From Eledone cirrhosa (taxonomy: Eukaryota), in the NCBI GenBank assembly GCA_964016885.1, contig OZ024747.1, positions 1,984,001 through 2,048,000 of the forward strand: a DNA stretch of 64,000 bases, written 5' to 3'. The position numbers were made by a program, and so were the translations under genes. How positions within the stretch are numbered: position 1 is the first letter of the stretch; every line of letters starts with the position of its first letter. Positions 3,434-60,902 of this stretch are shown here, piece by piece. The notes beneath the pieces were generated by a model. That model was not told where the DNA came from, searched no databases, and was given only the letters and a program-made list of their open reading frames with translations.

Positions 3434-3675
3434 ATCCTTACCCCAGAAGACAAGAGAAGGTGCCAGAAGAAGAAACAGCAGAGACAGAAGCTGCACACCT
3501 AACAGATACCAATGTAGCTACATTGCCACGCTCTAATGTAGTAGATATTAACATTGATGAGAATACAAAATTAAAATCTTTTCCATCTGACAGTTCAACA
3601 TTTCAACAGCTACCATTAAAAAATAGCTTTTCTTCAACAAACAAGCCCCTGCCAGCTATCCCAAATGTGCCATAG
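3434..3675 (+). CDS. Terminal coding exon (DPYPRRQEK...NKPLPAIPNVP*), receptor/adaptor-like cytoplasmic tail
   Basis: Acceptor tttttgttattctgcag|; G+AT rebuilds Asp in frame with the upstream exon; TAG at 3673-3675 followed by AT-rich UTR-like sequence. Confidence 0.7.
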
Positions 3676-4025
3676 TGAAACAAGCTTAAAAAAAAAATAT
3701 ATATATATATATATTTTATTCACAAATTGAAAATAACACTTTTTTATAAAAAAAACAAAAAAAGAAAACAAAAAAATTCTTTTTATCAGTCAGTAAAAAT
3801 GTGTGCGTGTGTTGTTTTTAAATTTTCAATAATAACTAAAAGTTTATTAAGATCATTTACATATTTTTTTTATTCATAAGCATTAAACTTTTTGGGTCAT
3901 TGTTCATAGATCCAAGAATTATTGTGTGTTCTTGAAAAAAAAAAACAAAAAAATTAGAAGAAATTAAAAATTTTCATTATTTCATAACTGAGGGAATGAT
4001 GTGTTGAAAAACCTGAGTGTATTCA

Positions 4026-4590
4026 GTGAATTGGCAGAGCATCGGACCAAATGTGGAATTTATTCCAGATATGTTGTGACTTTAAATCCTTCTGAGATCA
4101 ACTTTGCCTTTCATACATCCAGGGTTAATAAAATAAAGTACCAGTTACATACTGAGGTGAATTTAATTGATATCGTCTCTCAACAAATTGTCAGCCTTGA
4201 ATTGGCAGTATCGGTAGAGGGCCGGACGTCATGCTTTGATGCATAGAGTTACGGCCCTTTCCATTCTGAGTTCAAATCCCGCCGAGGTCAACTTTCCCTT
4301 TCATCCTTATGGGGTCGATAAAATAAAGTACCAGTAATGTACTGGGTAATTGCTGGCCTTGTGCCAAAACTAGAAACAATTATTATTTAATGAATAAGGC
4401 GGTGGATTGACAGAATTGGAAGAGGGTCGGACACCATGCTTTGCAGCAAAGAGTTATGGCCCTTTATGGTCTGAGTTCAAATCCCGCCGAGGTTAACTTT
4501 GCCTTTCATCCTTATGGGGTCGATAAAATAAAGTACCAGTAATGCACTGGGATAATTGCTGGCCTTGTGCCAAAAGTAGAAACAATTATT
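4026..4590 (+). mobile_element. Three head-to-tail S1 SINE copies (about 4026-4200, 4204-4384, 4399-4590)
   Basis: A-box-like TGGCAGTATCGG, B-box GAGTTCAAATCC and shared body GCCTTTCATCCTTAYGGGGTCGATAAAATAAAGTACCAG (reminiscent of the MetaSINE central domain). Confidence 0.85.
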
Positions 4591-22745: not shown

Positions 22746-23883
22746 CATCATCATCATCATCATCATCATTTTACGTCCGCTTTTCCCTGCTTGCAAGGGT
22801 GGGACGGGTCTTATTCAGCACAGCATCTCTCCACTCGTCACGGTCCCTCGTCATCTCCACCGTGAGCTTCAATGATCTGAGGTCTGTTCTCACCACCTCC
22901 GCCCATGTTTTTCGTGGTCTACCTCTACCACGTCTTCCTTCAACTGGCATTTCCTGGCACTTCTTCACCCATCGGTCATCCTCCATGCGCATCACATGTC
23001 CATACCACCTCAGTCTCCTCTCCCGTACACTACATTCTATCCCTCTCAGACACAGTTTCTCTCTCAACACATTTAAGCTGGGTCGTTCACGCACATTTAC
23101 ACTGCACATCCAACGGAGCATGCTTGCCTCATTTCTCTCCAGCCGTCGCATATCTTCTGCGGTAGCTGCCCATGTCTCACTACCATGCAGCATCGCGCTC
23201 CTCACACAGGCATCATACAACCGGCCTTTCGTACGCAGGGAGAAACCCTTCTTCGTCAACAGAGGAAGCAGCTCCCTAAACTTCTTCCAACCCGTCCTTA
23301 TTCTAGATACTATGGCCTCGGAACACCCTCCTCCCATGCTAATCTGATCTCCTAGGTACCGGAAGCTATCCACCACTTCTATAGCGCCCTCTCGCATTTG
23401 AAAAATGTGTCTATCAGTGCGACTTCTACTGTCTAATTTCCCTGTACATCTACTGCATACATATTTCTCCCTACCTGTTAGTTTGCCTGCTATCCCGCTA
23501 CATCTCTTGTGTACCCAGGACCTACATTGTGTGCATTTTATAGAATTTATGCCAGTTCCTTTTCTGCATATCGAACATGGCCATTTCCCTGACGGAATCA
23601 GGGTTTTGTCCTCTTTTCTACTCATCAACACTTTTGTCTTAGCTAGATTTACTCTCAGTCCTCTTGCTTCCAACTGCTGTTTCCATAGCCGGAATTTATT
23701 CTCTAGCTCCTCTACTGATTCTGCCATAAGAGCCAGATCGTCAGCATAGAGAAGTTCCCATGGACAGCCAGTCTTAAACTCCTCTGTTATGGCTTGGAGG
23801 ACTATAATGAACAAGAGCGGGCTGAGGACCGAACCCTGATGTACTCCTACTTGTATCTGGAATTCCTCACTAAACTCCATTCC
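22746..23883 (-). mobile_element. RTE LINE family B, 5'-truncated, open ORF ending at the (GAT)n tail
   Basis: GVHQGSVLSPLLF, YADD, RRLRWYGHVMRM, ...[13 protein letters not shown]; essentially no 3' UTR. Confidence 0.93.
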
Positions 23884-23889
23884 TATGTA

Positions 23890-23922
<33 letters not shown>

Positions 23923-23935
23923 GTATGTATATATA

Positions 23936-24122
23936 TTTCGTTTCTGAATTTGTTTAGCAAGATTCTTTATCTGAAAACGTGTGTTGAAACCGATATTGTT
24001 ATACTTTGGGAGGGTCATGTTGCCAATAAGAAACACACGCACCAGTTGCTTTCACTTCAATTTATTATAATAAATTTATATATGTATATATAAATATATA
24101 AATGTATAAATATATATATGTA

Positions 24123-24155
<33 letters not shown>

Positions 24156-24500
24156 GTATGTATATATATTTCGTTTCTGAATTTGTTTAGCAAGATTCTT
24201 TATCTGAAAACGTGTGTTGAAACCGATATTGTTATACTTTGGGAGGGTCATGTTGCCAATAAGAAACACACGCACCAGTTGCTTTCACTTCAATTTATTA
24301 TAATAAATTTATAAATTTAGGAATTTATAAATTTCCGGTTGGGTGGTTGGTTCCACAACCAGATGGTTGTTTATATATTGTCAAAGTTCTTTCGTCACGC
24401 ATTTTGTGACCTCTTCAGTGACTGGGGATTCTTTTCTTTGTTTTTGTGCCTCTCCTTTGTTCTGACCTACGCCATCTTGTTTCTGTGTGTGTTTCACATC
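23936..24500 (-). mobile_element. PLE-like terminal repeat (family P1), partially duplicated in tandem
   Basis: 23936-24080 repeated at 24168-24312; hammerhead at 24380-24422; ORF start [28 protein letters not shown]. Confidence 0.7.
24380..24422 (-). ncRNA. Minimal type I hammerhead ribozyme
   Basis: GTCA-CTGAAGA-g-GTCAC(loop)GTGAC-GAAAG-aa-CTT-TGAC. Confidence 0.7.
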
Positions 24501-24506
24501 TTGTTT

Positions 24507-26186
24507 CACAGTTGATTAGGGACCGGGTGAAACTAGATGAGATTCAATTTGGGTTTGTACCAGGAAGAGGCACCACTGATGCCCTCTCCCTTGTGAGGCA
24601 GTTACAGGAAAAGTGCCTAGCTAAAAGTAAGCCACTCTACCTGGCATTTGTAGATCTCGAGAAAGCCCTTGACAGAGTTCCACGTGCTGTAATCTGGTGG
24701 GCTCTTAGAAAACTAGGAGTAGATGAATGGCTTGCGAAAGCGGTACAAGCCATGTATAGGGGAGCAGTCAGCAAAGTTAGGATTAGCAATGAGTATAGCG
24801 AGGAATTTAGCGTACAGGTTGGTGTCCACCAGGGCTCTGTTCTTAGCCCTCTCCTGTTCATCATAGTCCTGCAGGCAATAACGGAGGAGTTTAAGACCGG
24901 ATGCCCATAGGAACTCCTGTATGCTGATAATCTCGCGCTTATAGCTGAATCTATGGTAGAACTAGAGAAGAAATTCCAAACCTGGAAGCAGGGACTAAAA
25001 AGAAAGGGTCTCAAAGAAAGTCAACATGACAAAGACTAAGGTCCTTGTAAGTAGACGAGAAAACAGAACCCAGATCCCTCAGGGAAATGGCCTTGCTCAG
25101 TATGTAGGAAAGGTGTAGGTAGGAACTCTATTCTCTGCCCCAAATGCAAACAATGGGTACACAAGAGATGTAGCGGGATCTCAGGAAGCTTAATTAAGAA
25201 TGTAGGCTTCACATGCAGCAGCTGTGCTGGGACAGCAAGCAGCAAACAGCCACAGAAAACAAGTACCACCAATCTCTGGGAGGGCTCTGTAGAAACAGTA
25301 GACAGCTTCTGCTACCTAGGTGACCGAATTAGCAGCGAGGGTGGGTGTTCAGAAAGTACAATAACTAGGGTAAGAACGGGATGTAAGAAGTTCAGGGAAC
25401 TACTGCCACTTGCTAGCTGCAAAAGGCTTCTCCCTCAAAATGAAAGGCAGACTGTATGCTGCGTCTATCCGAACAGCAATGTTACATGGTAGTGAGACCT
25501 GGGCGCTGAAGGTGGAAGGCTTACCTAGATTAGAGAGAAACGAAGCCTGCATGCTCCGATGGATGTGTAATAGTAATATACACGAACGACAAAGCATAAA
25601 TGAATTGAGAGAGAGACTGAGCATAAGAGGAATCAAATGCTGTGTGCAGGAGAGGCGGTTGCGTTGGTATGGACATGTGATGCGTATGAAGGATGACAGC
25701 TGCATAAAAAGGTGCAGAGCAGTAGAAGTCGATTGAAACTGCGGAGCGGGGAGACCCAAGAAGACCGGGGATGAGGTGATAAAAGCCGACCTTACCCAAT
25801 TACACCAAAGGCGATGACACACGACCGTGACCTCTGGCGTCACGCAGTAATACAGAGTACCCGACCTCCCATGGGTACAAGCTGAAGCATATAGACAATA
25901 TGCCCCCACACCCTCCCACTGCAAGGTGGTCGTGGAGGTGCCACAGCAAAAAAGCACCCAGCCCACACTGTAAAGTGGACGTGTAGGTGCCACGAAAAAG
26001 CACCCAGCACTCACTGTAAATGAGGTTGGTGTTAGGAAGGGCATCCAGCTGTAGAAATCAAACCAAAATCAGTTCCTGTATGAGCAAGGCATGGTCAGCC
26101 GACCAGACACTGCCTACAACAGGACAACCCGTCTAACCCATGCTAGCATGGAAGAACGGACGTAAAATGGTGATGATGATGATGAT
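24507..26186 (+). mobile_element. RTE family A copy, 5'-truncated, with stops and frameshifts
   Basis: QFGFVPGRGTTDAL, GVHQGSVLSPLLF, TAG at 24908, mutated YADN; full 3' UTR. Confidence 0.93.
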
Positions 26187-34423: not shown

Positions 34424-35873
34424 GTATATTTCAATTTGTATTTTAACAGTTTCACATCTTTTGGGAACTATTTTAGTCAACAGTGATTGTGATGTTTATC
34501 AATGTGAATGTTTTCTTTATTTTTCAGTCCTTGATTATTATGTCTGCCTGGTTTACCTTACCTCCTTGTCAGCCTAGATGGACATATCCCAGATGATTGA
34601 GGCCAGGTTATTTTCATGTATCAGGTTTCACATAGATGTAATGGCATATAGTCCAGTGGATAGAGATGTATACCTAACTACAGCTCTTGTATTTATAACT
34701 GGGAAGCTATTTCTACTGGTTATGAAATAGAATGGGACCTCACTTAATATAGAATGTTGGTGTAACACAATGGCTGTAGTAGAATGGTTTCAACTCATTG
34801 CCACACAACCAACTTTCTGATATTTTTACTATAAGCTTATTATTCATATCTACTTTTATTTTCATATATTTTCAGGTCTAATTTCTTGTTTAAAACACCA
34901 ACAAAAGAATCAAAGGAAAGTGTTGATGGCAAAAATGATTCAATAAATTTCATGGGTTTTGATAAATTTGGAGAAGAGGAAACTGAAGGCTAAGAGAATA
35001 ACAGTTTTAAATTAAAAAAAAGATGTTTTCTCTCAGATGAAGTGTCAGTCTGAAAACATTACATTCCTCTTCTCTTCATAGAAATAATCCAAACTTCACT
35101 CTATAATTTCTTGATTGATTGGGGATTGATTTATTTAAATCATAAGTCTTGTGCAATTCCAAGATGTGTTTTATTCTCTATATTTGGGTCAATACTCCCT
35201 CTCTCTCTCACTTTTAGAATTAGAGTTGGAGGTACAGTTTTTCATTAGGTATTAACTTGATATAAAATACATTTGTTCATCACAACAAAAACATTTTCCA
35301 TACTTACTCTACAGTATAGAATCTCTGACAAATGGATATTTAATCAATATATCTAAATTCATTATTAAATTCTTTCTAGCGCTCATATTCTATTCCCATT
35401 TTTTACTCTTCAAAAAAAATTTCTTTTTATCATTCTTTTACTTCTTTTATTTTTATTCCCACCTTTTCTTGGCTATTTACTTCTCCCTATATACTTCCCT
35501 ACTACCCCCGAAAATATTCAATCAATACTCACATAACCAGAAATTTCCTTTTTGTCTCTCTCTCTCTCTTTGTCATGCTATCCCTATCTACGCACCAACA
35601 CCACCATCATGAGTATAGCACCTGATAATGCTGGGAGACTTCTAGTGTTTTCAGTTGTTAGAAGTGTAGAAGTGAGAAATTATAGTGATTTCATTGAAGG
35701 ATTATTCATAGAAATTCAAATGAGAAGCATTCAACTATAGAAAATATTTAATGTATGTATATATATATATATATGCTTGGATCTAGTTCTAGTTTAAAGT
35801 AATCCAATATTGCATTATACTTATTATTTGATTTCTAAATCAGTTTATCAGAGTCTTTTAAGCAAATCAAATG

Positions 35874-35938
<65 letters not shown>

Positions 35939-36248
35939 ACACACATATATATATATATATACATATATATATAATATATATATATGTATGTATATATATA
36001 CATATATATATGTATATATATATATATATGTATTTCGTTTCTGAATTTGTTTAGCAAGATTCTTTATCTGAAATCGTGTGTTGAAACCGATATTGTTATA
36101 CTTTGGGAGGGTCATGTTGCCAATAAGAAACACACGCACCAGTTGCTTTCACTTCAATTTAATTTATTAAATATTTATAAATTTACAAATTTATAAATTT
36201 CTGGTTGGTTGGTTGGTTCCACAACCAGATAGTTGTTTATATATATAT

Positions 36249-36295
36249 AGTCATAGTTCTTTCGTCACACACACTCTGTGACCTCTTCAGTGACT
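36249..36295 (-). ncRNA. Minimal type I hammerhead ribozyme
   Basis: AGTCA-CTGAAGA-g-GTCAC(agagtgtgt)GTGAC-GAAAG-aa-CTA-TGACT; CUA cleavage triplet. Confidence 0.75.
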
Positions 36296-36345
36296 GGGGA
36301 TTTCGTTCTTCGTTTCTGTGTCTTTCCTTCCTTTCTTCTATCCTA

Positions 36346-36392
36346 CGCCATTTTGTTTGTGTGTGGGTTGCGTGCTCAGTTTGCGCATGCGC
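36346..36392 (-). promoter_or_regulatory. YY1-like (CAAAATGGCG) and NRF1-like (GCGCATGCGCA) motifs upstream of the hammerhead
   Basis: Consensus matches; YY1-like motif conserved as CAAGATGGCG at 24470-24479. Confidence 0.4.
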
Positions 36393-37038
36393 CACATCCG
36401 GGTGTCTGTGTGTGTTTGTGTTCATTTTTCTATTTTTCTATTTATATTTTTCTATTTGTTTGTTTATTTATTTATTTATTGTTGGTTGGTTGGTTGTTTG
36501 TTCTATGTGTGTGTGTGTTTTCATTTTGTGTGTGTTTTCAATTGTAAGTTGTTTGTTCTATGTGTGTGTGTGTTTTCATTTTGTCCTTAATTGTAAGTTG
36601 TGATGTTGCTGTTCCACTCATATTTTCTATTTAATTTTGGTTTTAATTCTTTTATGCTTACTGCCTCTGTAATTACAACCAACCAACCAGAAATTTATAA
36701 ATTTGTAAATTTATAAATATTTAATAAATTAAATTGAAGTGAAAGCAACTGGTGCGTGTGTTTCTTATTGGCAACATGACCCTCCCAAAGTATAACAATA
36801 TATATATATGTACATATATATGTATATGTATATATGTACATATATATATATATATACGTATATATATATACACACATATATATATATATATATGTACATA
36901 TATATATATATATGTATGTACATATATATATATATGTATGTACATATATATATATGTACATATATATATATATGTACATATATATATATATATATGTACA
37001 TATATATATATTATATATATGTACATATGTACATATAT

Positions 37039-37421
37039 CAGCATCACCGTTTTACGTCCGTTCTTCCACGCTAGTATGGGTTAGATGGGTTGTCCTGTTG
37101 TGGGCAGTGTCTGGTCGGCTGACCATGCCTTGCTCATACAGGAACTGATTCTGGCTTGATTTCTACAGCTGGATGCCCTAACACCAAGCTCATTTACAGT
37201 GACTGCTGGGTGCTTTTTTGCCATGGCATCTCCACGACCACTTTGCAGTGGAAGGATATGGACCCCAGTCCCTAGCATCCCATTTCTACAGCTGAGTAAA
37301 CTGGAGCAATGTGAAATAAAGTGTCTTGCTCAAGGAAACAACACATCACCTGGTCTGAGAATTGAACTCACAACCTTTCGATTGCAAGGCCAATGCTCTA
37401 ACCACTAAGCCATGTGCCTCC
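37039..37421 (-). mobile_element. Full-length CORE-type SINE S2 with RTE-A tail
   Basis: tRNA head TGGCTTAGTGGTTAG / GAGTTCAATTC, CORE-like body, tail matching the RTE-A 3' UTR at 14333-14590 (with one fewer 48-bp unit). Confidence 0.9.
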
Positions 37422-60568: not shown

Positions 60569-60902
60569 CATTCATCATTTCATTTCATTTTACGTCCGCT
60601 TTTTCCCTGCTTGCAAGGGTGGGATGGGAACTGATGCTGGCTTGATTTCTACAGCTGGATGCCCTTCCTAACACCAACCTCATTTACAGTGAGTGCTGGG
60701 TGCTTTTTTGCTGTGGCACCTCCACAACCACTTTACAGTGGAATGATAAGGACCTCAGTCCCTATCATCTCATTTCTACAGCTGAGTAAACTGGAGCAAT
60801 GTGAAATAAAGTGTCTTGCTCAAGGAAACAACATCACCCGGTCTGAGAATTGAACTCACAACCTTTCGATTGCAAGCCCAATGCTCTAACCACTAAGCCA
60901 CA
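60569..60902 (-). mobile_element. CORE-type SINE S2 with RTE-B terminus
   Basis: Same chimeric tail as 17148-17447. Confidence 0.88.

What the first reader, a model, noticed from the sequence alone, without database searches (positions are those of the whole stretch)
36032..36800. Compact non-coding PLE/retrozyme-like unit: promoter motifs, hammerhead, ORF start and inverted end
Seen on the - strand in order: NRF1-like GCGCATGCGC, YY1-like CAAAATGGCG, an intact type I hammerhead (CUA site), then caacATG plus about 28 codons. The other end is a 125-bp inverted copy of that terminus. There is no RT. Stem II sequence is conserved with the 24380 copy while the loop differs. Established: inverted or tandem pLTRs with hammerheads typify Penelope elements, and non-autonomous hammerhead retroelements exist in animals. 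Inference: an undescribed non-autonomous, TA-targeting family able to self-cleave and form dsRNA.
Basis: partly seen in the sequence, partly recalled or inferred. Interest (0 to 1): 0.75.

Follow-up and report, generated by a model that had tools for sequence, protein, structure and literature searches.

The report
Truncated Penelope-like retroelement insertion stub
This is a dead, cut-down end piece of a very abundant Penelope-like jumping gene, lying head-to-head with a short mirror-image piece of itself inside a TA repeat, which is an ordinary footprint for this class; its hammerhead motif is predicted, not shown, to self-cleave.

Summary
The unit is not a separate non-coding, non-autonomous family.

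- **What it is.** The unit is the last 643 bp (36674-36032, minus strand) of a 4,286-bp autonomous Penelope-like element (PLE). It is joined head-to-head to an inverted 126-nt piece of the same end (36676-36801), inside (TA)n.
[quoted passage not shown] Intact tandem copies exist in the same genome. The unit's other end carries the last 28 codons and stop of the same ORF.
- **Abundance.** The genome has 15,873 exact copies of a 3'-end 25-mer and 12,112 exact hammerhead motifs.
- **Architecture.** In a position-ordered sample of 100 copies, 25 of 27 close pairs are head-to-head. In 23 of those 25, only one arm has the 58-nt "tail", as here.
- **Hammerhead.** It fits the published minimal hammerhead of metazoan PLEs. 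Rfam does not detect it, and cleavage is untested. Copy 5' ends do not pile up at the cleavage site. They do pile up at the YY1-like box (12 of 66), which is likely the RNA start.

All of this matches published PLE biology. The scan has already reported such stubs elsewhere in this genome and in other genomes.

The parts
36676..36801 (+). Inverted 5'-truncated copy of the PLE 3' end (unit positions 4103-4228 of 4286). It ends at the inner RT start site and lacks the tail.
   Evidence: 126-nt arm, 100% complementary to 36090-36215. blastn of one natural unit against the window.
36675..36675 (-). Single filler base at the head-to-head junction.
   Evidence: Sequence read. Matches in other copies start at query 128 and the arm ends at query 126.
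36032..36674 (-). Direct 5'-truncated PLE copy: the last 643 nt of the unit (unit positions 3633-4286), including the tail.
   Evidence: 94-98% identical to 29 fetched genomic copies. Colinear with the tandem full-length units in L084.
36587..36673 (-). Last 28 codons (ITEAV...NITTYN) plus the stop of the RT/GIY-YIG ORF.
   Evidence: Translation. Identical to aa 1240-1267 of the intact 1,267-aa ORF.
36383..36392 (.). Palindrome GCGCATGCGC. The NRF1-like label is recalled and untested. It lies about 35 nt upstream of the cluster of copy 5' ends.
   Evidence: Conserved in subfamily B copies.
36346..36355 (-). CAAAATGGCG box. The YY1-like label is recalled. It is the likely RNA 5' end or transcription start region of the family.
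   Evidence: 12 of 66 truncated copies have their 5' end 13 nt upstream of the box to 4 nt inside it, against 1.6 expected.
36249..36295 (-). Type I minimal hammerhead motif. Helix I is 5 bp. The core is CUGAAGA, followed by an extra G. Helix II is 6 bp with G10.1-C11.1. GAA follows. Helix III is 2 bp (AG/CU) around a 2-nt loop. The cleavage site is CUA, 3' of 36254.
   Evidence: 12,112 exact family copies against 0 for the control pattern. Not found by Rfam.
36032..36115 (-). True start codon and first 28 codons of the PLE ORF (MTLPKYNN...QKRN). Here they are cut off by the element's 3' end.
   Evidence: The same ATG opens the intact 1,267-aa ORFs across the unit junction in tandem array L084. 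tblastn.
36032..36089 (-). 58-nt 'tail' between the two alternative 3' termini (query 712 and 770). It is present on this arm only.
   Evidence: Copies end at either terminus. 23 of 25 head-to-head pairs have the tail on exactly one arm.
35871..36031 (.). (TA)n-rich microsatellite flank, one half of the likely target.
36802..37053 (.). (TA)n-rich microsatellite flank, the other half of the likely target.
24168..24493 (-). Second family fragment (subfamily B, unit positions 3955-4286) with a hammerhead at 24380-24422. Its 5' end lies 15 nt upstream of its AAGATGGCG box, inside the 5'-end cluster.
23935..24080 (-). Third fragment (unit positions 4139-4286), in direct orientation and separated from the second by (TA)n.

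Best explanation
The 36032-36801 unit is the last 643 bases of a 4,286-base autonomous Penelope-like retroelement joined head-to-head to an inverted 126-base piece of the same end inside a (TA)n microsatellite, and it was most likely laid down in one target-primed insertion in which both cut DNA ends primed cDNA synthesis.

**Shown**
- The ORF's ATG lies 84 nt before the unit's 3' end, so the ORF is complete only across a tandem (pLTR) junction.
- Copies end at one of two termini 58 nt apart.
- Head-to-head pairs are the rule, and the tail sits on one arm only.

**Inferred, by analogy with the Anolis element PAc (PMC11167929) and from the copy census**
- Transcription likely starts at the YY1-like box downstream of the GCGCATGCGC palindrome.
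- The RT likely initiates internally at the two sites just inside the ORF start.
- cDNAs were likely 5'-truncated at random. Here that happened 421 nt upstream of the hammerhead site on one arm and 38 nt downstream of it on the other. The result is a copy with no RT that was dead on arrival.

**The hammerhead.** It is the family's PLE-type minimal motif and is predicted to be inactive as a monomer. Any role in processing multimeric transcripts is untested. The copy census gives no sign that cleaved RNA is the usual template.
For: **Anatomy of the unit**
- The arms are 126 nt and 100% complementary.
- blastn of a natural unit maps 36674-36032 to unit positions 3633-4286 and 36676-36801 to positions 4103-4228.
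- In 28 of 29 other loci, homology continues upstream of the breakpoint into the EN ORF. It holds over all 120 nt shown in 25 loci and over 30-100 nt in 3.
- 2 of 29 loci continue downstream into the ORF.

**Autonomous parent**
- L084 has three unit ends spaced 4,286 bp apart and two intact 1,267-aa ORFs that start at the same ATG.
- 16 of 150 scored EN matches lie in open frames of 1,268 aa or more, and all 150 are 96-100% identical to the query.

**RT and EN identity**
- YVDD is invariant in a 17-sequence alignment.
- 5 of 17 relatives hit RVT_1 (best E 5.8e-10) and 3 of 17 hit GIY-YIG (best E 6.6e-07).
- The alignment profile hits solved RTs: DRT1 at 1.9e-07 and TERT at 0.12.

**Insertion pattern**
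- The 3' flank is TA-rich in 26 of 29 subfamily A loci and 20 of 20 subfamily B loci.
- In a sample of 100 loci, 46 of 66 truncated copies abut an inverted PLE piece.
- 25 of 27 close pairs are head-to-head, and 23 of those 25 have the tail on one arm only.

**Literature match**
- The pLTR, the inverted 5'-truncated copy, the one-sided tail and the (TA)n targets are described in PMC8557442 (sections read).
- Internal RT initiation at two sites inside the ORF start, which defines the tail, and extension from both strands are described in PMC11167929 (main text read).
Against: - Pfam finds no family in this element's own ORF. RT and EN identity rests on relatives and motifs.
- No phylogeny against reference PLEs was run, so the clade is open.
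- A single insertion event for the two arms is inferred only from their 100% identity, set against 2-6% divergence between copies.
- No empty site or target-site duplication can be read in (TA)n.
- The transcription start at the YY1-like box is inferred from copy ends, not from RNA.
- Rfam hammerhead models do not match.
- Loop 3 (AA) is not palindromic, so the dimer helix III proposed for such motifs would carry two A-A mismatches.
- None of the 66 truncated copies starts exactly at the cleavage site, and only 2 start within 3 nt of it.
Confidence: 0.9

Rival explanations
1. A separate, non-autonomous hammerhead retroelement family (retrozyme-like), mobilised in trans and defined by this roughly 770-bp unit.
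For: - The locus has no RT.
- It carries promoter-like boxes, a hammerhead and an ORF start.
- Animal non-LTR retrozymes are reported to derive from PLE pLTRs (abstract of 10.64898/2026.07.22.740005).
- A class of short copies running from the YY1-like box to the tail exists: 12 of 66.
Against: - The sequence is colinear with and 94-98% identical to the 3' end of the autonomous element.
- 28 of 29 loci extend upstream into the EN ORF.
- The breakpoints of this unit are not shared: 0 of 29 loci.
- 0 of 27 close pairs are same-orientation tandems.
- The unit begins inside a coding region.
Confidence: 0.04
2. A MITE or foldback DNA transposon with 126-bp terminal inverted repeats that inserts at TA.
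For: Perfect 126-nt inverted arms flanked by TA repeats.
Against: - The right end extends 58 nt beyond the arm, so the inverted repeat is not terminal on that side.
- Inverted partners at other loci have different breakpoints and lengths.
- The interior is PLE coding sequence and 3' UTR.
Confidence: 0.01
3. The stub is not inert. As a solo pLTR it acts as a promoter or as a source of a 126-bp perfect hairpin RNA (small-RNA or editing substrate) at this locus.
For: - The boxes and the putative start region are intact.
- A transcript spanning both arms would fold into a 126-bp perfect stem, with a predicted MFE of -247.6 kcal/mol for the 712-nt unit.
Against: - No RNA evidence exists for this locus. 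Only assembled contigs were available, and one 230-nt contig in a metatranscriptome run does not show transcription.
- A transcript starting at the internal box runs away from the inverted arm, so the hairpin needs read-through from outside.
Confidence: 0.1
4. The inverted arm is an assembly artefact of a repeat-rich, TA-rich region.
For: PLE tandem and inverted structures are said to trouble assemblies (PMC8557442, section 6).
Against: The same head-to-head architecture, with a one-sided tail, recurs at 23 of 25 pairs on another contig. It is the published PLE pattern.
Confidence: 0.03

Closest known systems
Insertions of endonuclease-bearing (EN+) Penelope-like elements with pLTR, an adjacent inverted 5'-truncated copy and a one-sided tail (Craig et al. 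2021, PMC8557442, sections 6 and 11 read; it cites Arkhipova 2006, which I did not read)
   Same: - 5' truncation.
- Partial tandems that form pLTRs.
- An inverted truncated copy at the 5' side.
- An extension present at one end only.
- (TA)n targets.
- A hammerhead in the pLTR.
- A single RT + C-terminal GIY-YIG ORF.
   Different: - The tail is 58 nt here, against the 30-40 bp quoted.
- The ORF is long (1,267 aa) and has an N/T/H-rich low-complexity stretch before the RT.
- The family and clade are unnamed here.
PAc, a Poseidon-clade PLE of Anolis carolinensis (Frangieh et al. 2024, PMC11167929, main text read)
   Same: - The ORF start lies upstream of two adjacent internal RT initiation sites, and their spacing is the tail.
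- Both target strands are cut and extended.
- The targets are AT-rich.
- Hammerhead cleavage is not needed for insertion, and no RNA ends were seen at the cleavage site.
   Different: - Here the two 3' termini lie at ORF nt 26 and 84, against 111-118 in PAc.
- Here the hammerhead lies about 140 nt upstream of the ATG. In PAc it overlaps the start codon.
- Nothing here is tested biochemically.
Minimal hammerheads (min-HHR) of metazoan PLEs (Cervera & De la Pena 2014, PMC4209133, whole text parts 1-2 read)
   Same: - Type I motif with a short helix I (5 bp) and a long helix II (6 bp).
- An unpaired nucleotide between A9 and G10.1.
- A G10.1-C11.1 pair.
- A vestigial helix III with a pairable 15.2-16.2 (G-C).
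- Located in the pLTR, with thousands of copies per genome.
   Different: - Loop 3 (AA) is not palindromic.
- There is almost no sequence variety within the family here, because it is young, so no covariation is available.
Animal non-LTR retrozymes (PMC7229834, search listing only; Li et al. 2026 preprint 10.64898/2026.07.22.740005, abstract only)
   Same: Sequence related to the PLE pLTR, carrying a type I hammerhead and lacking an ORF of its own.
   Different: - No short head-to-tail arrays.
- Not a family distinct from the autonomous element.
- No evidence of circular RNA.
Hydra-clade PLEs (PMC8557442, section 11 read)
   Same: C-terminal EN, a hammerhead and (TA)n insertion.
   Different: - Hydra elements are under 3 kb, lack CCHH and have a CxCX5C linker and a DKT motif.
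[quoted passage not shown]

Membership tests
Penelope-like element, EN+ with C-terminal GIY-YIG | Reverse transcriptase domain in the single ORF | tested here: met
   - YVDD is invariant in 17 aligned relatives.
- RVT_1 hits in 5 of 17 relatives, best E 5.8e-10.
- The profile hits solved RTs: DRT1 at 1.9e-07 and TERT at 0.12.
- The element's own ORF is below Pfam detection.
- The RT is in the family, not in the window.
Penelope-like element, EN+ with C-terminal GIY-YIG | GIY-YIG endonuclease C-terminal to the RT | tested here: met
   - VVYSIRC...VYIGETARSIGERINEH lies at the ORF's C-terminus.
- PF01541 scores above its cutoff in relatives P0030 (30 bits) and P0035 (27.4 bits).
- I-TevI matches only at E 0.51.
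Penelope-like element, EN+ with C-terminal GIY-YIG | Partial tandem (pLTR) organisation, with the ORF complete only across the junction | tested here: met
   L084 has units every 4,286 bp, and the 1,267-aa ORFs start 84 nt before the previous unit's end.
Penelope-like element, EN+ with C-terminal GIY-YIG | Inverted 5'-truncated copy at the 5' side, and a tail on one end only | tested here: met
   Seen in the window unit. 25 of 27 close pairs are head-to-head, and 23 of those 25 have the tail on one arm.
Penelope-like element, EN+ with C-terminal GIY-YIG | RT groups with PLE and telomerase RTs in a phylogeny | not tested
TERT matches only weakly, at E 0.12.
Neptune/Nematis-type PLE | CX2-5CxxC linker upstream of GIY-YIG | tested here: met
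   CIDKKCITC is present, and its first two cysteines are invariant in 17 sequences. This does not tell Neptune from Nematis.
Neptune/Nematis-type PLE | [quoted passage not shown] | tested here: inconclusive
   RCTEGQC lies between GIY and YIG, and histidines follow (EHW, YQH, IEH). It was not aligned to reference ENs.
Hydra-clade PLE | No CCHH, a CxCX5C linker, a DKT motif, and length under 3 kb | tested here: not met
   The unit is 4,286 bp, the linker is CX4CxxC, and the motif reads DKS.
Hammerhead ribozyme (Rfam hammerhead models, as I recall them: Hammerhead_1, Hammerhead_3 and others) | Match to a curated covariance model | tested here: not met
   No hammerhead hit at gathering score in the whole window, nor at E<=10 in 35900-36900.
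Metazoan PLE min-HHR (Cervera & De la Pena 2014) | Core CUGANGA...GAA, A15.1-U16.1, H17, helix I of 4-5 bp, long helix II, an extra nucleotide between 9 and 10.1, and G10.1-C11.1 | tested here: met
   Descriptor scan. The MFE fold of the 61-nt and 47-nt RNAs recovers helices I and II. 12,112 exact genomic copies against 0 for the control.
Metazoan PLE min-HHR (Cervera & De la Pena 2014) | Palindromic 15.2-16.2 and loop 3, allowing a dimeric helix III | tested here: inconclusive
   15.2-16.2 is G-C, but loop 3 is AA, which is not palindromic. The cofold MFE does not form an intermolecular helix III.
Metazoan PLE min-HHR (Cervera & De la Pena 2014) | Self-cleavage | not testable with these tools
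   No raw RNA reads were available. Copy 5' ends show no pile-up at the site: 0 of 66 exact and 2 within 3 nt.
Non-LTR retrozyme | Short head-to-tail repeats that each carry a hammerhead, with no coding capacity, as a family of their own | tested here: not met
   0 of 27 close pairs are in the same orientation. The unit is colinear with the autonomous element and starts in its ORF.
MITE | Fixed terminal inverted repeats and a target-site duplication | tested here: not met
   The arms vary between loci. One end runs 58 nt beyond the repeat. A target-site duplication cannot be read in (TA)n.

The most novel reading that the evidence does not exclude
The pLTR of this family is a self-contained mini-retroelement in the making.

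- RNA starts at the YY1-like box.
- The RT can begin at the first internal start site it meets, only about 270-330 nt downstream.
- The resulting start-to-tail copies are hammerhead-bearing and have no ORF. The 24168-24493 fragment is one of them. They form a recurrent class, which could be a direct on-ramp from autonomous PLEs to animal retrozymes.

Separately, the thousands of perfect head-to-head arms would be a genome-wide source of long dsRNA hairpins, as substrates for editing or small RNAs.
Probability: 0.2. Interest if true: 0.55.

Novelty: new member of a known kind. Interest (0 to 1): 0.25.

Why it matters
For this locus it matters little. The stub is an ordinary dead PLE insertion and should be masked as repeat. 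It should not be reported as a new ribozyme element.

The family behind it is a useful natural data set for a poorly understood class of retroelement:
- It is young, with copies 94-100% identical.
- It is huge, with about 16,000 3' ends.
- It includes intact ORFs and tandem arrays.
- It has clean signatures of two RT start sites, a strict one-tail-per-pair rule, and a likely transcription start at a YY1-like box.
- It shows no sign that hammerhead-cleaved RNA is the template.

These observations bear on how PLEs integrate and on what their hammerheads are for. Both questions are still open in the papers read here.

Tried and rejected
- **Rfam, whole window (gathering) and 35900-36900 (E<=10).** No hammerhead was found. 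The sub-threshold miRNA-family hits (mir-297, mir-466 and others) all sit on TA/TG microsatellite and are artefacts.
- **Pfam on the element's own ORF.** Nothing was found, so I went through relatives instead.
- **Public runs.** Only assembled contigs were served, with no raw reads. One 230-nt contig in a metatranscriptome run covers 36536-36674, and seven 31-32-nt contigs in another cover about 36548-36584. Neither shows transcription, strand, starts or ends. One run of unknown kind holds the repeat at very high depth. Nothing about expression or cleavage can be said from these.
- **Covariation test of the hammerhead.** It was not possible. Subfamilies A and B are about 90% identical over the last 330 nt and share the same stems, and only loop II, H17 and one distal helix I base differ. 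No DNA of relatives from other species could be fetched.
- **Twin-priming reading of the two LINE pieces around the 24-kb fragments.** Rejected, because each piece runs to its own 3' end, so they are two head-to-head 5'-truncated copies.
- **Earlier notes of the scan for this place and this sequence.** None were found.
- **A cluster of 5' ends at +40 to +79 (12 of 66).** It lies in an AT-rich stretch just upstream of the sampling 25-mer. It may partly reflect the sampling floor and BLAST end effects, so I draw nothing from it.
Full report
**Observation.**
I read 35800-37000 on the minus strand.
- GCGCATGCGC lies at 36383-36392. It is the only match in the window, against 0 in 100 shuffles.
- CAAAATGGCG lies at 36346-36355.
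- A hammerhead-like motif lies at 36249-36295.
- caacATG has its A at 36115 and is followed by 28 codons ([28 protein letters not shown]) before the frame runs into (TA)n.
- An inverted arm pairs 36090-36215 with 36676-36801. It is 126 nt, 100% complementary, with 460 nt between the arms.
- (TA)n-rich microsatellite flanks both sides.

Rfam finds no hammerhead in the window at gathering score, nor in 35900-36900 at E<=10. The only sub-threshold hits there are miRNA families matching the TA/TG repeats.

**What the unit belongs to.**
A DNA search of the window's own 3.0-Gb genome, with the unit as query, scored 40 of 513 first-look candidates. The scored copies are 94-98% identical. They cover only query 128-770 or 128-712, that is, the unit without its inverted arm.

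I examined 29 other fetched loci.
- In 25, the sequence upstream of query 128 is conserved over all 120 nt shown.
- In 3 it is conserved over 30-100 nt, and in 1 it is absent.
- It encodes a GIY-YIG endonuclease C-terminus (...VYIGETARSIGERINEHW...ITEAVSIKELKPKLNRKYEWNSNITTYN*). The unit's first 87 bases (36673-36587) are the last 28 codons and stop of that ORF.
- Downstream of L006, that frame is open for 1,240 aa and contains YVDD and the endonuclease.

A tandem array (L084) gives the clean picture. Unit ends recur every 4,286 bp. Two intact 1,267-aa ORFs each begin at MTLPKYNN, 84 nt before the end of the preceding unit, and end at ...NITTYN.

A natural unit and its ORF, compared with the window, match only four places:
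- 36674-36032 (unit positions 3633-4286);
- 36676-36801 (positions 4103-4228, inverted);
- 24493-24168 (positions 3955-4286);
- 24080-23935 (positions 4139-4286).

At the protein level the window holds only aa 1-28 (three times) and aa 1240-1267 (once). The locus is a 5'-truncated fragment of an autonomous element, not a non-autonomous family.

**Is the parent a Penelope-like element?**
- Pfam finds nothing in the ORF itself.
- A search of 5.8 billion proteins gave 35 relatives. The best is a hypothetical 'reverse transcriptase domain-containing' protein of Octopus vulgaris at 69% identity.
- In a 17-sequence alignment, R-Y-V-D-D and several cysteines are invariant.
- 5 of 17 members hit RVT_1 (best E 5.8e-10) and 3 of 17 hit GIY-YIG (best E 6.6e-07). 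Both score above Pfam's cutoffs in P0035, and GIY-YIG does so in P0030.
- The alignment profile hits solved reverse transcriptases (DRT1 at 1.9e-07, Drt3a at 3.6e-04, TERT at 0.12) and, weakly, I-TevI (0.51).

A single ORF with RT followed by a C-terminal GIY-YIG, tandem pLTR organisation, inverted truncated partners, a one-sided tail, (TA)n targets and a hammerhead in the pLTR together make up the published definition of EN+ PLEs (PMC8557442, sections 3, 6, 11 and passages read).

[quoted passage not shown] They argue against Hydra, which lacks CCHH, has a CxCX5C linker and is under 3 kb. I ran no phylogeny, so the clade is open.

**Architecture is the family rule.**
I counted an exact 25-mer from the 3' region. 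It has 15,873 matches (7,859 forward and 8,014 reverse), against 0 for the backwards control. I fetched the first 100 places listed on contig C1, which is an order by position and not by score. Each was mapped onto natural A-type and B-type references.
- 34 copies extend beyond the roughly 800 nt fetched, and 66 are truncated within it.
- Of the 66, 46 abut an inverted PLE piece, 3 abut TA repeat and 17 abut other sequence.
- 3' ends fall at two places: 44 at the inner terminus (query 712), and 45 at +59 or +61 with 5 more at +52 to +58 (query 770). The other 6 of the 100 ended elsewhere (4 within 6 nt short of the inner terminus, 1 at -39, 1 not printed).
- Of 27 neighbour pairs within 6 kb, 25 are head-to-head, 2 are tail-to-tail and 0 are in the same orientation.
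- In 23 of the 25 head-to-head pairs exactly one arm has the 58-nt tail, in 2 both do, and in 0 neither does.

Both arms of a pair were sampled, so the 100 loci are not independent.

The window unit has one arm with the tail and one without, and random 5' breakpoints. It is therefore a typical member. PMC8557442 describes the tail as present 'only at one end'. PMC11167929 (main text read) shows for the Anolis element PAc that the RT initiates at two adjacent internal sites inside the start of the ORF, that the tail is the stretch between them, and that both target strands are cleaved and extended. Here the two termini lie at ORF nucleotides 26 and 84. This explains why the ORF's first 28 codons sit at the 3' end of every copy.

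**The hammerhead.**
Reading 5' to 3' on the minus strand, the motif is:
- AGUCA (helix I);
- CUGAAGA (C3-A9);
- an extra G;
- GUCACA-GAGUGUG-UGUGAC (helix II, 6 bp, G10.1-C11.1);
- GAA;
- A15.1 G15.2 - AA - C16.2 U16.1;
- A17, with cleavage after 36254;
- UGACU (helix I).

Equally, G10.1 can pair with C11.1, followed by a bulged G.

This matches what Cervera & De la Pena describe for metazoan PLEs: a helix I of 4-5 bp, a long helix II, an unpaired nucleotide between 9 and 10.1, G10.1-C11.1, and a helix III too short to form in cis (PMC4209133, parts 1-2 read).
- A descriptor with these features hits the window twice, both times in PLE fragments, against a mean of 0.005 in 200 simulations. I wrote the descriptor after seeing the motif.
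- MFE folds of the isolated RNA recover helices I and II.
- The genome holds 12,112 exact matches to the family's stems and core with a free 5-11-nt loop, against 0 for the control.

Three points weigh against calling it 'intact'. Rfam does not see it. Loop 3 (AA) is not palindromic, so the proposed dimeric helix III would carry two A-A mismatches. The published min-HHRs were inactive as monomers and weak as dimers, and PAc's hammerhead needed protein and was dispensable for insertion in vitro.

The agreement of stem II with the 24380 copy carries little weight. Subfamilies A and B are about 90% identical across the last 330 nt, and there is no compensatory change.

**A test of cleavage and of the promoter idea from copy ends.**
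If hammerhead-cleaved RNA were a common template, cDNA 5' ends should pile up at the first base after A17. In the sample, 0 of 66 truncated copies start there. Two start within 3 nt (+2 and -3), and both abut inverted pieces with ambiguous junctions.

In contrast, 12 of 66 ends fall between -108 and -91 relative to the cleavage site. That is from 13 nt upstream of the AARATGGCG box to 4 nt inside it. The density of ends further upstream predicts 1.6, giving a Poisson P of about 1e-7. In two pairs (L101/L102 and L154/L155) both arms end there.

The simplest reading, which is an inference, is that the family's RNA begins at this box, about 35 nt downstream of the GCGCATGCGC palindrome. A pause or preferred joining site is the alternative.

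The window's 24168-24493 fragment starts 15 nt upstream of its box. It therefore belongs to this class: a complete cDNA from the tail back to the RNA 5' end. The NRF1 and YY1 names are recalled resemblances. No binding or promoter test was possible.

**Mechanism for this locus.**
Shown:
- the two arms are 100% identical, while family copies differ by 2-6%;
- one arm ends at the inner terminus and the other at the outer terminus;
- both lie in one TA repeat.

Inferred: one insertion event into (TA)n, with cDNA primed from both cut strands at the two RT start sites. The two cDNAs broke off at unit positions 3633 and 4103 and were joined with one filler base. The product has no RT or EN and cannot move by itself. 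It retains the boxes, the hammerhead and the ATG. A read-through transcript would form a 126-bp perfect stem. There is no RNA evidence for this locus.

**Novelty.**
- Penelope-like elements are known to be abundant in cephalopods (passages of PMC8967140 and PMC13282606).
- My three literature searches turned up no description of this particular family. Repbase and Dfam could not be searched, and the supplements of PMC8557442 that list families were not opened.
- The scan itself has already reported such head-to-head PLE stubs in other pieces of this genome and in other genomes. I saw those notes after my reading was formed. Two of them suggest that copies break off where the RNA begins. For this family I place that point at the YY1-like box, about 50-65 nt upstream of helix I.

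**Verdict.** This is an ordinary footprint of a known kind of element and, at most, a new family member. The family-level regularities are the only part of wider interest.

Noticed in passing
G000 genome-wide; example L084 = G000:C3:66544500-66554499: The parent PLE family is very large and young.
- 15,873 exact 3'-end 25-mers and 12,112 exact hammerhead motifs.
- 38,926 first-look candidates for its EN domain; all 150 scored are 96-100% identical.
- 16 of those 150 lie in open frames of 1,268 aa or more.
- Tandem arrays of 4,286-bp units carry intact 1,267-aa ORFs. This looks like recent or ongoing activity.
   Followed up: partly
100 sampled loci on G000:C1 (L085-L184): - In 23 of 25 head-to-head pairs, exactly one arm carries the 58-nt tail.
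- 5' ends of 12 of 66 truncated copies cluster at the AARATGGCG box, against 1.6 expected.
- None starts exactly at the predicted hammerhead cleavage site.
   Followed up: yes
window 22771-23890 (-) and 24530-25740 (+): Two 5'-truncated non-LTR (LINE) copies lie head-to-head around the 24-kb PLE fragments.
- Each has RT motifs (FVPGRGTTDA...YADD) and a cysteine-rich finger (CSICRKG...CTQCRSWVHKRC).
- Each runs to its own 3' end next to TA-rich repeat.
- TA microsatellites here seem to collect several retroelement types.
   Followed up: partly
L032 (G000:C3:81710400-81717400), ORF aa ~210-470; also L031: The PLE ORF carries an in-frame low-complexity stretch of about 250 aa, rich in N, T and H. 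It lies between the N-terminal region and the RT, looks microsatellite-derived, and is kept open in intact copies.
   Followed up: no
window 24493-24520 (-): Just upstream of the 24-kb fragment's 5' end there is a short imperfect re-copy of GAAACAAGATG. This may be extra synthesis or a template jump at the RNA 5' end.
   Followed up: no
protein P0034: An Octopus vulgaris gene model named 'dynein regulatory complex subunit 6-like' matches the PLE ORF at 79% identity over 20% of the query. The annotation probably absorbed a PLE fragment.
   Followed up: no
window 60839-60902 (-): A weak tRNA-like match (31.6 bits against a gathering score of 29). It may be a tRNA-derived SINE head and not a tRNA gene.
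   Followed up: no
window 36266 region and one search list: Loop II of the hammerhead varies by GT-dinucleotide number and by single bases between copies (AGAGUGU, AGAAUGU, and the window's longer GAGUGUG with an extra A-U pair). The stems and core stay fixed in 12,112 copies.
   Followed up: partly
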